Position numbers: made by a program. This document shows positions 13,001 to 19,000 of a stretch of DNA of 64,000 nt, piece by piece; within the stretch, counting starts at the first letter, position 1; the number at the start of each line of letters is the position of its first letter. The stretch lies in assembly GCF_013167455.1 (NCBI RefSeq), contig NZ_CP038328.1; one strand, 5' to 3'. Source of the stretch: Escherichia coli O157:H7 (GTDB lineage: Bacteria > Pseudomonadota > Gammaproteobacteria > Enterobacterales > Enterobacteriaceae).

Positions 13001-16000
13001 GGACATATACATCAGGTTATCGATACCGTTCATATTCTGTTCGATAACCTGCGTCACCGTATCCTGCACGGTCTGCGCATCAGCGCCCGGATAGTTTGCT
13101 GAAACAGAAACCGCAGGCGGTGCAATGGTTGGATACTGAGCGACGGGCAATTGTAGGATCGCCAGTGCGCCCGCCATCATCAGAATAATGGCCAGCACCC
13201 ATGCAAATATCGGTCGTCGAATAAAAAAGTTTGCCATGTCAGATTACCTTACTTCGATGCAGTATCTGCGGGGGTATCGGTAGTGGCTTTAACCTGCTCT
13301 CCCGGACGCGCTTTTTGCAGGCCGCTGACAATGACTTGATCGCCAGATTTCAGACCTTCGCTAATCAACCATTTATCGCCAATCGCCTGACTGGCAACGA
13401 CAGGGCGCACTTCCACCTGACTTTTATCGTTAACAATCAGCACGGTTGCATCACCACGCGGTGTGCGGCTAACGCCTTGTTGCGGGATGAGAATGGCGTC
13501 AGGTTGGACGCCTTCATCAATCCGTGCACGCACAAACATACCCGGCAAAAGCGTATGTTGCGGGTTAGGGAAGACAGCACGTAGGGTTATGGAGCCGGTG
13601 CTTTCATCAACGGTCACATCGGAGAATTGCAGCGTACCTTTCAGGGGATAGGTTTGACCGTTTTCCATGACCAACTCTACGTTGCTGGTGGCGTTTTCCT
13701 TATGCAAATTTCCTTGCTCTACGGACTGCTTCAGCCTCATAAAATCGTTGCTGGATTGGGTCACATCAACATAGATAGGATCGAGCTGCTGGACAGTTGC
13801 CAGTTCAGTCGTTTGCCCATTAGTGACAAGAGCGCCTTCGGTCACAGTCGATTTGCCGATACGTCCGCTAATTGGCGCAGTCACTTTGGTATAAGCAAGA
13901 TTGATGCGAGCGCTTTCGACTGTGGCTTTTGCGGCAATCACGGCGGCATCGGCCTGGCGAGCATCAGCAATGGCCTGGTCGTACTCCTGCTGGCTGATGT
14001 ATTTCGTACCCACGAGCGGAACGTAACGTTTTACCGTCAAATGCGCGATGGCGGCGGCGGCTTCACTTTTCGCCAGTTCGCCTTTCGCGCTGTCATAATT
14101 TGCCTGATAGGTCGCGGGATCGATCTGGTACAGGGACTGGCCTGCTTGCACATCGCTGCCTTCAGTGAAATTGCGATTCAGTACGATCCCGCTAACCTGT
14201 GGGCGAACTTCGGCTATACGATAAGCATTGGTGCGGCCTGGTAATTCAGTCTTAACTTCTAACGGGGCCGTTTTTACAATATGAACGGTAACCTGCGGTT
14301 CACCGACGTGAGCTTTCTCTTCTCCCTTATCGTTACAACCGGCGATTAAAGCCGCGGAGATCAGAATAAAGGAGGGCAGGAGGAAAAACCTGGCATGTTT
14401 CGTCATTACTATTCCTCAAAAAACCAAAAGCGCGTTATTTACCCAAAAAGGCAACGCGTTAACTCGCAGAAAGAAAAATACAGTTCGCTATCCTACAAAT
14501 TATCATTCGTCGATGTAAGGAATAGTTATGAATACAGGCGTCTCAAGGCACATAAACACAAAAAAAGATTAATATTCTACTGTTTTATTTTGACGCGGGT
14601 TGAAAGAGGCAGAATTAAAAAATCGTAAATTGAAGTATATATTGATGTAGTGAATGTATCTTAAGTAAATAATATATATTATTTATTTAACGATTTATAG
14701 CAACTCAATGTTAGCCTCTCGTATAAATACACATTAGGTGATAGATTAACCTTCGCTATTTTCTCACTCTGTGTCGAAGATATTTATTTCCTGAATAATT
14801 AATCATGGCAAAAAGAACCAAAGCCGAAGCTCTGAAGACCCGGCAAGAACTGATTGAAACTGCCATCGCCCAGTTTGCGCAACATGGCGTAAGCAAGACG
14901 ACGCTCAACGACATTGCCGATGCCGCTAACGTTACGTGTGGCGCTATCTACTGGCACTTCGAGAACAAGACCCAACTGTTTAATGAGATGTGGTTGCAAC
15001 AGCCTTCATTGCGGGAGTTAATCCAGGAACACTTGACGGCTGGATTAGAGCATGACCCGTTTCAACAATTGCGTGAAAAATTGATTGTCGGCTTGCAATA
15101 TATTGCCAAAATTCCCCGCCAGCAGGCGTTGCTGAAAATCTTATATCACAAATGTGAATTTAATGATGAGATGCTGGCCGAGGGAGTGATACGCGAAAAG
15201 ATGGGCTTTAATCCGCAGACTCTCCGCGAAGTATTGCAGGCGTGTCAGCAACAAGGTTGTGTAGCAAATAACCTCGATTTAGATGTTGTGATGATTATTA
15301 TTGATGGTGCCTTCAGCGGAATTGTTCAAAACTGGTTAATGAATATGGCGGGTTATGATCTTTATAAACAAGCCCCCGCTCTGGTCGATAACGTATTAAG
15401 AATGTTCATGCCAGATGAAAACATAACGAAATTAATTCATCAAACGAATGAATTAAGTGTCATGTAAATTCACATTCTGTCCTGAAAATTCAGTTCGTCA
15501 CAGTTAACCAGTTTTAGTGGATTAACTGAGTTCATATTGCGGCATTTGTCTGTTTCTGTTGCCAGCAGTTCAATCCACTGCATCAGTAAAGTATCAAACA
15601 GAAAAACGAAGACAGCGAAAACGACGAGCCACCAATACTTGCGAATCATTACCTGAGCCTGTGCATGTTTAACCAAGTCTGGCAGGAAATATACACGAAA
15701 TGAATAATCTGCAAACCAGGCTTACACATCCTTTACTTTGTAATGAGATCGGGGTCAACTTCGCTTAACCGGCTTCGTTTTGACAGGTTGCCGGTCTTTC
15801 TTTTTTTCACTTTCGCCAGTTCTTCCGCAGAGTAATGCGACGCGACATCCAGCCGTCGAAGCCCCATTTTGATGTACTCGCTGTTGATCTCAATACCAAT
15901 GAATTTTCGTCCGCTGGCGATGGCTACGGCACCGGTAGTAAAGCTACCAGCAAACGGGTCGAGAACGATATCGCCTGGGTTGGAAGAGGCGAGAATAATG

Positions 16001-19000
16001 CGTTTCAGTAAGGCTTCCGGTTTTTGCGTCGGGTGGTTTTCATATTCATCCATCAAATAACGCACGCGCGGAAAATCCCAGACGTTACCCGGTACTTTTT
16101 GATGATTGTAAGGCTGTGGAGGATTTTTGCGATAATCGATCAACGCGCGCTGCGATCCGGTTTTGGCTTCTACCAGAATAGCATCACCGTTGAATGTGTA
16201 GTTCTTTGCGTCTTTCACCATCATCAGGATGGGTTCGTACATGGAGCCGTAGTGTTTTTTCGCCTGCACTCCAGAACTGTCATATGACCAGACGATGCGA
16301 CTTTTGATGGTAAAAAGCTTGCGGCACTGGAGATCGATAAAGGGCATGTTTTCCGTACTGTTCATGATGTACATGCTGCCCTGCTTTTTCAGAACGCGGT
16401 GGCACTCTGCAATCACTTCTAACAGCCAGTCGATAAACAGATCTTCTTTCCAGGCTTCGATCAGACCATCAAAATTTTTACCGATGTTATACGGTGGGTC
16501 GGCAAAGATCAGATCGACGCTTTCAGTAGGTAGCTTTTTAAGTTCGGCAAGGGCATCACCGTGAATAATGGTCTTAGCTTCATTACCAAACCGGGTCGGT
16601 TCACATCCTGTTCTCATGGTCACTCCCTTTGTGACACCTATAAAAAAGGCGCTTCCCCATGCCGAGTAGCGCCTTTTAATCAAGCAATTAGCTAACCTGA
16701 ATTAGTTCATGCCGTATTTTTTCAATTTTTTACGCAGCGTACCACGGTTGATGCCCATCATCAGCGCAGCACGGGTCTGGTTACCACGGGTGTATTGCAT
16801 CACCATGTCCAACAGGGGCTGTTCTACTTCAGCCAGTACCAGCTCATAGAGGTCATTCACATCCTGACCATTCAGTTGAGCAAAATAGTTCTTCAGTGCC
16901 TGTTTAACCGAGTCACGCAGGGGTTTTTGGGTTACCTGATCCTGAGAGTTAACGGTAGAAACGGTCAGTACGTCAGAATTTACGCGTTGTTCGAACATAG
17001 TTCTGTCAGCTCTTTATTTCTGTTTACGCAAAATTTTCGAAGTATGCCTCCAACGCCTCCAGCTGTTCGCTGGCATCCTCAATGGCGTTGAATGTGCGCC
17101 GAAACTGGTCATTTGGAGCGTGTTCCTGGAGATACCAGGAAACGTGTTTACGTGCAATTCGGTACCCTTTTGCCGGACCATAAAAGTCATGCAGTTCCCG
17201 AACGTGCGCGCAAAGCAAGCGCTTAACCTCTGCCAAAGGCAGCGGGGGCAGCAACTCCCCAGTGTCCAGATAATGCTGGATTTCCCGAAAGATCCAGGGT
17301 CTTCCCTGAGCTGCGCGGCCTATCATCAGGGCATCCGCCCCTGTATAGTCGAGCACAGCTCTGGCTTTAAGCGGGTCAGTAATGTCGCCATTCGCGATAA
17401 CCGGAATGGAAACTTTCTGCTTAACTGCCCGAATACTGTCGTACTCAGCTTCTCCATTGAACAAACAGGCGCGTGTACGGCCATGAATGGTCAGAGCCTG
17501 AATGCCACAGTCTTCAGCCAGTTGGGCAATCTCTTCGCAGTTACGGTGTTCCGGTGCCCAGCCGGTGCGAATCTTCAGGGTAACAGGAACGTCCACTGCA
17601 TTGACGACCTCGGTAAGGATCGATTTAACGACATCCGGGTACTGCAAGAGGGCTGAACCTGCGAGCTTGCGATTCACTTTTTTAGCCGGGCAACCCATAT
17701 TGATATCAATAATCTGGGCACCGCTTTCCACGTTAATACGTGCTGCATCTGCCATTTCTTTCGGATCGCTACCAGCAATTTGCACGGTGCGAATACCGGG
17801 TTCATCAATGTGCACCATCCGTAAACGAGATTTGTCGCTTTCCCAAACCTGTGGGTTAGAAGACATCATCTCGGATACTGTCAATCCGGCTCCCATCTCG
17901 TAGCACAACGTCCGAAAAGGTCTGTCTGTAATGCCAGCCATGGGCGCTGCGATCAGGCGATTTCTGAGCTGATATTGTCCGATGCGCATGAGTTAAGAAA
18001 TGACCATACTGTGACTGCAAGGCGGCGTATATTACGCATTTTTTGCACGAGATGAAAGGCCAAACTTTGACCAATCCTCTGAGATGGATCAAAGAATTGC
18101 ATTTAAAATGAGCGTGGTGCGATAATTACTCATAAAAATCATCATATTAGAAAATAGTGACTAAAATTTACACTCAAAGAAATTTGAGTAAGTTCTCAAT
18201 TTTTCTTTATGAATGAAAATTTTGGCACGCAAATTTGCGTAAATAATCGGCAAATTTACGTGCCTTTTGTGAGCTTGCTCGCACTTCGCCCCGCGTCACC
18301 CTATGGCGATGCGAAGGTTAATTCTTACGACCGGTAATACGGCACCACTCTTCTTTTTCCACGACCGGGTCCAGAGCGAAGCTGTCGGCATAGGCTTCGC
18401 AAACGCTCTCCGCCTGGCTTGCCAGAATACCAGAAAGGCCCAGTAAGCCGCCTGAAACTGGCAGGACGCTAATTAACGGTGCCAGTTCACGTAATGGGCC
18501 TGCAAGGATGTTAGCGACCACCACGTCGGCTTTCATTTCTTCTGGCTGATCTTTCGGTAAGTAGAGTTCCAGACGGTCAGAAACGCCATTACGTTCGGCG
18601 TTATCGCGGCTGGCCTGAATCGCCTGCGGATCGATATCAATACCAATGGCTTTTGCTGCACCCAGTTTCAGCGCCGCGATCGCCAGAATGCCGGAACCAC
18701 AGCCAAAGTCGATGACTGTTTTACCGGTTAAATCGAGGCTGTCGAGCCATTGCAGGCACAGAGAGGTGGTTGGATGGGTACCCGTACCAAACGCCAGCCC
18801 TGGATCTAACATCACGTTGACGGCGTTTTCGTCCGGCACATCACGCCAGCTAGGGCAGATCCACAGTCGTTCGCCAAAGCGCATCGGGTGGAAATTATCC
18901 ATCCATTCGCGCTCCCAGTCTTTATCTTCTAGTTGTTCGATTTTATGCGCGAAGCCTGCGCCGAGCAGCGGATGGTTTTCCAGAATCGCCACCACGTCGT

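What the first reader, a model, noticed from the sequence alone, without database searches (positions are those of the whole stretch)
15733..16617. Orphan adenine methyltransferase yhdJ beside fis
YhdJ has the DPPY motif of N6-adenine methyltransferases but has no adjacent restriction endonuclease gene in this window; the flanking genes are yhdU and fis. A solitary MTase in a core region is more likely regulatory or epigenetic than a restriction-modification remnant.
Basis: partly seen in the sequence, partly recalled or inferred. Interest (0 to 1): 0.15.

Follow-up and report, generated by a model that had tools for sequence, protein, structure and literature searches.

The report
Known orphan methylase yhdJ, ex-restriction system
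This is the well-known E. coli gene yhdJ (M.EcoKII), a lone DNA adenine methylase for ATGCAT; its closest relatives are the methylase halves of EcoT22I-type restriction systems on plasmids and islands, so it is an old, domesticated restriction-system methylase rather than a demonstrated gene regulator.

Summary
Window 15733-16617 (-) is an intact 294-aa beta-class N6-adenine methyltransferase with a DPPY motif. It lies between fis and yhdU, and no restriction gene is in the window. It is yhdJ/M.EcoKII of E. coli O157:H7, present in 5417 of 5426 complete E. coli genomes.

YhdJ is 75% identical to the methylase of plasmid pEC22, which encodes the M.R.EcoT22I system. In 24 of 33 non-enterobacterial relatives with at least 52% identity, a homologous type II restriction endonuclease gene lies directly beside the methylase. 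In a neighbour-joining tree the fis-linked orphans form one clade (82%). That clade is sister (99%) to the mobile, endonuclease-linked enterobacterial genes. So yhdJ descends from a restriction-modification methylase whose partner is gone; no remnant is detectable.

It is not decaying. Base composition matches the host, dN/dS is about 0.04-0.08, and synteny is conserved in Escherichia, Salmonella and Citrobacter.

Published work shows ATGCAT methylation, silence in E. coli, partial activity in Salmonella and almost no regulon.

The gene starts 24 nt after the conserved fis terminator with no promoter-like site. Expression by terminator read-through is my inference.

Already known; low interest.

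The parts
15733..16617 (-). yhdJ coding sequence (M.EcoKII), 294 aa plus stop; beta-class N6-adenine DNA methyltransferase
   Evidence: ORF; PF01555 E=3.1e-64; NCBIfam NF008572 587 bits; 100% identical to the annotated yhdJ of O157 genomes
16489..16500 (-). Catalytic motif IV, DPPY (residues 40-43, within FADPPYN)
   Evidence: Translation; invariant in 15 homologues; aligns with the DPPY of CcrM structure 6pbd
16048..16335 (-). Central region between motif IV-VIII and motif X-I (residues 95-190); presumed target-recognition region
   Evidence: Best-conserved segment: 83% identity to M.EcoT22I and 84% to Salmonella YhdJ. Its role as the recognition domain is inferred from the beta-class layout, not tested
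15931..15966 (-). AdoMet-binding motif I region, VLDPFAGSFTTG (residues 218-229), lying C-terminal to DPPY (beta-class order)
   Evidence: Translation; invariant D220 P221 F222 G224 S225 F226 T228; aligns with CcrM motif I
15769..15837 (-). Conserved basic C-terminal tail (residues 261-283, ...ELAKVKKRKTGNLSKRSR); homology to endonuclease-linked methylases ends at residue 283
   Evidence: Invariant K271 R273 K274 T275 N277 S279 K280; BLASTP alignments to M.EcoT22I stop at residue 283; the last 11 residues are unrelated
16623..16629 (-). Shine-Dalgarno sequence AAGGGAG, 5 nt before the ATG, in the loop of a small GTCAC/GTGAC hairpin
   Evidence: Sequence; fold
16640..16677 (-). Intrinsic terminator of the dusB-fis operon (AAAAGGCGCU...AGCGCCUUUUUUAU); leaves 22 nt before the yhdJ ATG (24 nt from the U-run)
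   Evidence: Fold -28.6 kcal/mol, z=-2.5; identical, except for one loop-side base in Citrobacter L007, in E. coli, E. albertii, Salmonella, Citrobacter and the yhdJ-less locus L091
16702..16998 (-). fis, upstream neighbour on the same strand
   Evidence: NCBIfam NF001659 E=5.6e-54; annotation
15470..15649 (-). yhdU (DUF2556, 59 aa), downstream neighbour on the same strand; a promoter-like site at 15688-15715 (-) lies in the yhdJ-yhdU spacer
   Evidence: PF10831 E=4.2e-36; annotation; promoter-like site found at the same place in other E. coli and Salmonella loci

Best explanation
The gene is yhdJ (REBASE name M.EcoKII). It is a solitary, AdoMet-dependent, beta-class N6-adenine DNA methyltransferase that methylates the second A of the palindrome ATGCAT. 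It descends from the methylase of an EcoT22I/AvaIII-type (ATGCAT) type II restriction-modification system. An ancestor of the Escherichia-Salmonella-Citrobacter group acquired or kept the methylase just downstream of the fis terminator. The endonuclease and its controller were lost or never came along. The methylase has since been inherited vertically under purifying selection. Its base composition has drifted to that of the host.

It has no promoter-like site of its own and begins 24 nt after a strong, conserved intrinsic terminator. I therefore infer that it is transcribed mainly by weak read-through from the growth-phase-regulated dusB-fis operon. That would fit undetectable methylation in E. 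coli and partial, exponential-phase-biased methylation in Salmonella.

Shown here: identity, motifs, synteny, endonuclease-linked relatives, tree, composition and selection. Taken from the literature: specificity, silence in E. coli, activity in Salmonella, lack of a regulon. Inferred: the loss scenario and the read-through mode of expression.
For: Identity:
- The region is 100% identical to O157 genomes and annotated yhdJ.
- PF01555 and the NF008572 equivalog both match above cut-off.
- Specificity and silence come from PMC4444293, PMC13337833 and PMC8495745.

Restriction-modification descent:
- YhdJ is 75% identical over residues 1-283 to the methylase of pEC22. pEC22 is described as 'a plasmid coding for MR.EcoT22I' (Elhai et al. 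1994, title cited in PMC5052281).
- pEC22 carries HTH controller, 343-aa endonuclease and a convergent methylase.
- The same trio is on other E. coli, Enterobacter, Klebsiella and Yersinia plasmids and on Citrobacter and other islands.
- The 343-346-aa partner matches PADLOC REase_II at E=1.7e-71.
- NCBI names it 'type II restriction endonuclease' in several taxa.
- 24 of 33 non-enterobacterial loci with at least 52% identity have this endonuclease next to the methylase.
- YhdJ's best PADLOC model is MTase_II (514 bits), not the orphan-methylase model (141 bits).
- Tree: orphans monophyletic 82%; sister to the mobile endonuclease-linked clade 99%; both inside an endonuclease-linked group 97%.

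Long residence and selection:
- yhdJ has GC 47.5% and GC3 53.6%, like its neighbours. M.EcoT22I has GC 34.7% and GC3 31.8%.
- Salmonella-Citrobacter dN/dS is 0.08.
- The gene is in 5417/5426 E. coli genomes, 5387 of them with at least 80% of its length.

Expression anatomy:
- The terminator hairpin is present and conserved across genera.
- No promoter-like site lies upstream in E. coli or Salmonella.
- More ATGCAT sites are methylated in mid-exponential than in stationary phase in Salmonella.
- Relocated dusB-fis operons raised transcription of downstream genes in exponential phase (PMC4751926).
Against: No trace of an endonuclease gene remains at the locus. In-situ loss therefore cannot be told apart from capture of the methylase alone.

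The tree is neighbour-joining on 282 columns, and some deep nodes are weak (66-74%).

dS between E. coli and Salmonella is saturated (3.8), so that ratio is unreliable. The high divergence (78% aa, against at least 95% for neighbours) could also reflect allele replacement from mobile copies.

Read-through is not demonstrated. In PMC4751926, deleting dusB-fis did not significantly change yhdJ expression relative to a control that has a cat cassette between fis and yhdJ. The consensus promoter scan cannot exclude a non-canonical promoter.

The anatomy does not explain why Salmonella methylates and E. coli does not. The terminator is identical, and the E. coli ribosome-binding site is the stronger one.
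Confidence: 0.8

Rival explanations
1. Protective 'vaccine' function. The chromosomal methylase is kept because pre-methylating ATGCAT shields the genome from EcoT22I-type endonucleases brought in by selfish plasmids and islands. This would cancel post-segregational killing, as Dcm does for EcoRII. This concerns the present function and is compatible with the best explanation's account of origin.
For: Mobile controller-endonuclease-methylase cassettes of the sister clade circulate in the same hosts: E. coli, Klebsiella, Enterobacter, Yersinia and Citrobacter. The presumed recognition region is the most conserved part of the protein (83% to M.EcoT22I), as expected if specificity must keep matching. 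Purifying selection persists although no regulon was found. The Dcm/EcoRII precedent (Takahashi et al. 2002) is cited in PMC11602122. The authors of PMC9239280 raise phage defence as a possibility.
Against: ATGCAT is not detectably methylated in E. coli under the conditions tested, so no protection would exist there. The cassette is rare: 3 of 5426 complete E. coli genomes. ATGCAT is not avoided in the window (10 observed, 10.9 expected), although 64 kb gives little power. No experiment addresses this idea.
Confidence: 0.25
2. Epigenetic regulator. ATGCAT methylation at particular promoters or sites controls gene expression or another chromosome transaction.
For: The gene is orphan, core and conserved. 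ATGCAT is the most condition-variable motif in the Salmonella methylome, and never-methylated sites are enriched upstream of genes. Conserved orphan methylases such as Dam and CcrM are regulators (established knowledge).
Against: Deleting yhdJ in Salmonella changed 12 transcripts in LB and none in SPI-2 medium. Only dppA among them carried a methylated site. Growth, motility and virulence effects were nil or marginal. Differentially methylated ATGCAT sites were not associated with expression changes. No methylation is detected in E. coli, and deletion has no phenotype. The CcrM equivalog model is failed: 136 bits against a cut-off of 830.
Confidence: 0.1
3. Neutral leftover. The gene is a functionless remnant that simply has not yet decayed, perhaps sheltered by its position next to fis.
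For: It is silent in E. coli and has no deletion phenotype. It evolves 5-8 times faster at non-synonymous sites than prmA or dusB. Truncated alleles exist: S. Paratyphi A stop at codon 151, Shigella and partial forms, and E286* in L096.
Against: dN/dS is about 0.04-0.08 over divergences at which a neutral gene would be destroyed. All catalytic and family-invariant residues are intact. 5387 of 5426 E. coli genomes hold at least 80% of the gene. The cloned enzyme is active.
Confidence: 0.08
4. Part of a split restriction-modification system whose endonuclease is encoded elsewhere in the chromosome.
For: Type II genes need not be adjacent. Only 64 kb was available for inspection here.
Against: No homologue of the family's endonuclease is in the window. 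In complete E. coli genomes the pEC22-type cassette DNA was found only on three small plasmids. yhdJ can be inactivated in E. coli and Salmonella without loss of viability, and the E. coli genome is unmethylated at ATGCAT yet intact. Both facts are incompatible with an active cognate endonuclease.
Confidence: 0.02

Closest known systems
YhdJ / M.EcoKII of E. coli K-12 and Salmonella (Broadbent et al. 2007)
   Same: It is this gene. The NF008572 equivalog is met, and synteny and annotation match. Other E. coli alleles differ by 3-12 residues, none in a motif.
   Different: Nothing material. This is the O157 allele. Methylation in O157 itself was not found reported in the papers I could read.
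M.EcoT22I of plasmid pEC22 and its plasmid/island relatives (EcoT22I/AvaIII/NsiI-type ATGCAT systems)
   Same: 75% identity over residues 1-283 and 83% in the central region. The motif order and basic tail are the same. The specificity ATGCAT is the same for YhdJ (literature) and for EcoT22I (established knowledge of the commercial enzyme). PGAP even labels these plasmid genes 'yhdJ'.
   Different: The mobile genes are AT-rich (GC3 about 29-32%). They overlap a convergent 343-aa endonuclease gene and are preceded by an HTH controller gene. The chromosomal gene has no partner and host-like composition. It sits behind fis, and its last 11 residues are unrelated.
CcrM (Caulobacter cell-cycle-regulated methylase, GANTC)
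   Same: Beta-class fold and motif order. CcrM is the best solved-structure relative (6pbd, E=1.9e-33). Both are orphans.
   Different: The CcrM equivalog model is failed: 136 bits against 830. YhdJ lacks CcrM's roughly 80-residue C-terminal domain (294 aa against 366 aa). It has a different recognition sequence, is non-essential, and has no cell-cycle role reported.
Dcm / EcoRII pair (an orphan methylase related to a mobile restriction system's methylase)
   Same: A chromosomal, conserved enterobacterial orphan shares its specificity with a plasmid-borne system found in the same hosts. PMC4444293 notes that yhdJ has a host range similar to dcm. The protective role of Dcm against EcoRII is cited in PMC11602122.
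   Different: Dcm is an m5C methylase and is constitutively active in E. coli. YhdJ is an m6A methylase and is silent there. The protective role has not been tested for YhdJ.

Membership tests
Beta-class N6-adenine/N4-cytosine DNA methyltransferases (Pfam PF01555) | Profile match above the curated threshold | tested here: met
   217.4 bits against cut-off 26.7, residues 34-251 covering profile 1-218 of 221
Beta-class N6-adenine/N4-cytosine DNA methyltransferases (Pfam PF01555) | Catalytic motif IV (D/S)PP(Y/F) | tested here: met
   DPPY at residues 40-43, invariant in 15 homologues
Beta-class N6-adenine/N4-cytosine DNA methyltransferases (Pfam PF01555) | Permuted order: motif IV, then the recognition region, then AdoMet motif I | tested here: met
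   DPPY at 40-43 and DPFAGSFTTG at 220-229; collinear with CcrM, M.RsrI and M.MboIIA structures
Beta-class N6-adenine/N4-cytosine DNA methyltransferases (Pfam PF01555) | AdoMet-dependent N6-adenine methylation of DNA | not testable with these tools
   Reported for the cloned K-12 gene: NsiI protection and ATGC(m6A)T (PMC4444293)
YhdJ / M.EcoKII orthologue group (NCBIfam NF008572 equivalog) | Full-length match above the equivalog cut-off | tested here: met
   587.2 bits against 292, positions 1-294 of 294. The plasmid endonuclease-linked genes are also named yhdJ by PGAP, so this model does not separate orphans from system members
YhdJ / M.EcoKII orthologue group (NCBIfam NF008572 equivalog) | Chromosomal synteny dusB-fis-yhdJ-yhdU | tested here: met
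   Window; E. coli, Salmonella, Citrobacter and E. albertii loci
Complete type II restriction-modification system of the EcoT22I/AvaIII type | Methylase homologous to the system's methylase | tested here: met
   75% identity to M.EcoT22I; best PADLOC model is MTase_II at 514 bits
Complete type II restriction-modification system of the EcoT22I/AvaIII type | Cognate endonuclease gene adjacent (convergent-overlapping or co-directional) | tested here: not met
   No tblastn or profile-HMM hit in the window, or downstream of yhdJ in Salmonella or Citrobacter. The neighbours are fis and yhdU
Complete type II restriction-modification system of the EcoT22I/AvaIII type | HTH controller (C) protein gene upstream of the endonuclease gene | tested here: not met
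   Present in pEC22, L097, L098, L101, L102 and L003; absent from the window neighbourhood
CcrM-type regulatory orphan methylases | Match to the CcrM equivalog model, and the C-terminal DNA-binding extension | tested here: not met
   136 bits against cut-off 830; 294 aa against 366 aa for the 6pbd chain, with the alignment ending at chain residue 268
CcrM-type regulatory orphan methylases | A demonstrated regulon or essential cell-cycle role | not testable with these tools
   Literature reports no such role: non-essential, and 12 or 0 differentially expressed genes

The most novel reading that the evidence does not exclude
yhdJ is a domesticated antidote. It would be kept by selection to pre-methylate ATGCAT and so disarm the addictive EcoT22I-type restriction cassettes that circulate on small enterobacterial plasmids and islands. 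Its dose would be set by leaky read-through of the fis terminator, so that protection peaks in fast growth, when fis is transcribed and DNA uptake and replication are highest. Silence in laboratory E. coli would then be a matter of conditions or lineage, not of lost function.
Probability: 0.15. Interest if true: 0.45.

Novelty: already known. Interest (0 to 1): 0.13.

Why it matters
YhdJ is one of only four DNA methyltransferases of E. coli K-12, and the only one without an assigned role. Knowing that it is the orphaned methylase of an EcoT22I-type system narrows the search for a function. It points away from transcriptional regulation, which published work has largely failed to find. It points toward interaction with mobile restriction systems and toward fis-linked, growth-phase-dependent expression. 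For the genome scan itself the finding is ordinary: a correctly recognised, long-characterised gene.

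Tried and rejected
1. Remnant of the endonuclease gene downstream of yhdJ. tblastn with three endonucleases and a 119-sequence profile HMM, run on six-frame translations of the window and of Salmonella and Citrobacter loci, gave only noise.
2. Avoidance of ATGCAT as a footprint of past restriction. The window has 10 sites against 10.9 expected (ratio 0.92) and none in 15400-17100. This is uninformative at 64 kb.
3. A dedicated sigma-70 promoter for yhdJ. None was found in the intergenic region or inside dusB-fis in E. coli or Salmonella with the consensus scan. The scan also missed the fis terminator, whose loop is long, so I folded it directly.
4. A sequence explanation for 'silent in E. coli, active in Salmonella'. 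The terminators are identical, and E. coli has the better Shine-Dalgarno sequence. Only a small hairpin around it differs. No conclusion was reached.
5. The 'YhdJ-like' methylase of plasmid pCS36-4CPA (PMC5935869) is a different, phage SE2-like gene and is not relevant. The same applies to the 'YhdJ branch' used as a conserved-domain label for Mycoplasma MhoVII.
6. Primary papers could not be read: Broadbent 2007, Fang 2012 and Elhai 1994 are not held. Their content is cited only through papers that quote them.
7. Cargo after the fis terminator in the yhdJ-less locus L091 gave no Pfam or PADLOC identification.
8. My first tree script timed out. I reran it with my own distance code.

Full report
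**Observation.** The minus-strand ORF at 15733-16617 is real and intact. It is 885 nt and encodes 294 aa from an ATG. It matches Pfam PF01555 (N6_N4_Mtase) at E=3.1e-64 and the NCBIfam equivalog NF008572 at 587 bits against a cut-off of 292. DPPY is at residues 40-43 (window 16489-16500). The AdoMet motif DPFAGSFTTG is at residues 220-229. This is the permuted order of beta-class enzymes, collinear with the solved structures of CcrM, M.RsrI and M.MboIIA. The neighbours are fis (16702-16998) and yhdU (15470-15649), all on the minus strand. The 1.7-kb region is 100% identical to E. coli O157:H7 chromosomes, where the gene is annotated yhdJ. No restriction gene is annotated nearby. A profile of the relevant endonuclease family finds nothing in the 64-kb window.

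**What is already known.** YhdJ is REBASE M.EcoKII. When overexpressed it methylates the second A of ATGCAT and protects against NsiI. In K-12 the chromosomal gene gives no detectable methylation, and its inactivation has no phenotype (PMC4444293; PMC13337833). ATGCAT methylation was also not seen in EPEC E2348/69 or in three environmental isolates. In Salmonella Typhimurium YhdJ is active, and all ATGCAT methylation disappears in the deletion mutant. About 61% of sites are methylated in at least one growth stage, more in mid-exponential than in late stationary phase. Even so, the deletion changed only 12 transcripts in LB and none in SPI-2 medium. Only one of the affected genes carried a methylated site, and growth, motility and virulence were essentially unchanged. 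Differentially methylated ATGCAT sites were not linked to expression changes. The gene, its orphan status and the puzzle of its function are therefore well documented.

**Relatives with a restriction enzyme.** The database search returned homologues of about 70% identity in distant organisms: Nostoc, Marinobacterium, Photobacterium and Shewanella. That level of identity is far too high for vertical descent. In each of these contigs the methylase gene is overlapped at its 3' end by a convergent gene for a 346-aa protein without Pfam or NCBIfam hits.
- This protein matches the PADLOC type II restriction-enzyme model PDLC03455 at E=1.7e-71.
- Members of the family are named 'type II restriction endonuclease' by NCBI in Anabaena, Yersinia, Cronobacter, Citrobacter, Enterobacter and E. 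coli.
- The E. coli member lies on plasmid pEC22 (NC_025058) in the order HTH controller, endonuclease, convergent methylase.
- pEC22 is the plasmid described by Elhai, Cai and Wolk (1994) as 'coding for MR.EcoT22I' (title quoted in PMC5052281). EcoT22I is the ATGCAT isoschizomer of NsiI and AvaIII (established knowledge; M.AvaIII methylates NsiI sites).
- The window's YhdJ is 75% identical to M.EcoT22I over residues 1-283, and 83% identical in the central, presumed recognition region.
- The same three-gene cassette sits on small mobilisable plasmids of E. coli, Enterobacter, Klebsiella and Yersinia, and on chromosomal islands in Citrobacter freundii and another enterobacterium.
- In a scan of one genome per species, 24 of 33 non-enterobacterial loci with at least 52% identity have a homologue of this endonuclease immediately beside the methylase. 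None of the loci below 40% identity does, and no enterobacterial fis-linked locus does.

**Direction of evolution.** I built a neighbour-joining tree from 282 columns with 100 bootstraps. It groups the fis-linked chromosomal genes of E. coli, E. albertii, E. fergusonii, Salmonella, Citrobacter and Intestinirhabdus at 82%. It places them as sister (99%) to the five mobile, endonuclease-linked enterobacterial genes. It joins both (97%) to the endonuclease-linked Shewanella/Photobacterium/Nostoc/Marinobacterium group, and the next outgroups are also mostly linked. The simplest reading is that linkage to the endonuclease is ancestral and the orphan state is derived.

Composition agrees with long residence. 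yhdJ has GC3 of 53.6%, like dusB, fis and prmA (54-58%). The mobile methylases have GC3 of 18-37% whatever their host.

The gene is not decaying. Salmonella against Citrobacter gives dN 0.106, dS 1.33 and a ratio of 0.08. E. coli against Salmonella gives dN 0.154 with saturated dS. It does evolve 5-8 times faster at replacement sites than its neighbours. It is present in 5417 of 5426 complete E. coli genomes, 5387 of them with at least 80% of its length. The mobile cassette is rare: 3 genomes, all on small plasmids. No trace of the endonuclease gene remains at the chromosomal locus. Loss in place therefore cannot be distinguished from capture of the methylase alone.

A related enterobacterial genome (L091) has the same fis terminator but unrelated genes directly after it. 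Homology to E. coli ends right after the terminator. This marks the site as a cargo junction.

**Expression anatomy.** The dusB-fis operon ends in a strong hairpin followed by a U-run (16640-16677; -28.6 kcal/mol for the 96-nt segment). The terminator is identical in E. coli, E. albertii and Salmonella and differs by one base in one Citrobacter locus. In all of them the yhdJ start codon follows 24-28 nt later. No sigma-70-like site was found upstream of yhdJ within dusB-fis or the spacer, in E. coli or in Salmonella. I infer that yhdJ is transcribed mainly by read-through of the fis terminator, which would make it weak and growth-phase dependent. Two published results fit this: the exponential-phase bias of ATGCAT methylation in Salmonella, and increased exponential-phase transcription of genes placed downstream of relocated dusB-fis operons. 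It is not shown. The same paper saw no significant change of yhdJ expression on deleting dusB-fis, but the comparison strain carried a cat cassette between fis and yhdJ. The anatomy also does not explain the E. coli/Salmonella difference in activity.

**Function.** The origin is now fairly clear, but the present role is not. A neutral relic is hard to square with the selection data. A split system with a distant endonuclease is excluded by the viability of mutants and by the unmethylated yet intact E. coli genome.

The most attractive remaining idea is protection against the related mobile ATGCAT systems, as shown for Dcm against EcoRII (Takahashi et al. 2002, cited). Sister-clade cassettes circulate in the same hosts, and the recognition region is strongly conserved. 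The silence of the gene in E. coli and the rarity of the cassette weigh against it. I rate it at about 0.25 as a contributing function, and 0.15 for the full antidote-plus-read-through scenario.

**Verdict.** The gene is already known and characterised. The descent from EcoT22I-type systems was not discussed in any paper I could search, but it is an ordinary kind of history for an orphan methylase. Interest is low.

**Limits.**
- The tree is distance-based, and the species sample was capped at 80 loci.
- dS is saturated for the main comparison.
- The specificity of the non-E. coli family members is inferred, not measured.
- The three primary papers could not be read directly.

Noticed in passing
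window 10088-13237 (-), premature stop at 11351-11353: acrF (RND efflux pump) is interrupted by a stop after codon 628, with a second stop four codons later. RefSeq annotates it as a pseudogene ('internal stop') in the identical O157 genome.
   Followed up: partly
window 14937-14939 (+), codon 45 of acrS/envR (14805-15467): The O157 AcrS repressor has Cys instead of Arg in the helix-turn-helix segment VTRGAIYWHF. Five other E. coli loci have Arg. Together with the acrF stop, this suggests the acrEF-acrS module is decaying in this lineage.
   Followed up: partly
window 15688-15715 (-); same place in L087 and L089 (5285-5312): A promoter-like site (9 of 12 matches) lies in the yhdJ-yhdU spacer and recurs at the same position in another E. 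coli locus and in Salmonella. It is possibly the yhdU promoter, so yhdU need not be co-transcribed with yhdJ.
   Followed up: no
L091 4298-8297 (GCA_043358095.1): This enterobacterial genome has the same dusB-fis and terminator but no yhdJ or yhdU. Instead it has three convergent genes (72, 765 and 314 aa). They have no Pfam or PADLOC match apart from a weak phage-capsid hit (E=1.3e-3). The site just after the fis terminator appears to be a cargo junction.
   Followed up: partly
L003 677-8466 and L004 1086-8192: In Marinobacterium and Photobacterium the restriction-modification pair travels with a large serine recombinase. The island splits a comM (Mg-chelatase-like) gene into a 436-447-aa part and a 67-74-aa part.
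   Followed up: no
L014 and L021 (Chitinophaga arvensicola, C. ginsengisegetis), match at 5001-5786: This is a second endonuclease-less lineage of the same methylase family, with conserved flanking synteny between two species. C. tropicalis (L022) has the gene in a different context. Orphaning seems to have happened more than once.
   Followed up: partly
L096 4383-5240; Shigella and partial forms P0016, P0082, P0088: Shortened yhdJ alleles occur sporadically. Examples are E286* in one E. coli, 230-262-aa forms in Shigella and E. coli, and the S. Paratyphi A stop at codon 151 reported in PMC9239280.
   Followed up: no
window 16618-16634 (-): In E. coli and E. albertii, but not Salmonella or Citrobacter, the yhdJ Shine-Dalgarno sequence sits in the 7-nt loop of a 5-bp hairpin (GTCAC/GTGAC) that abuts the start codon. 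This is a possible but untested contributor to the gene's silence in E. coli.
   Followed up: no
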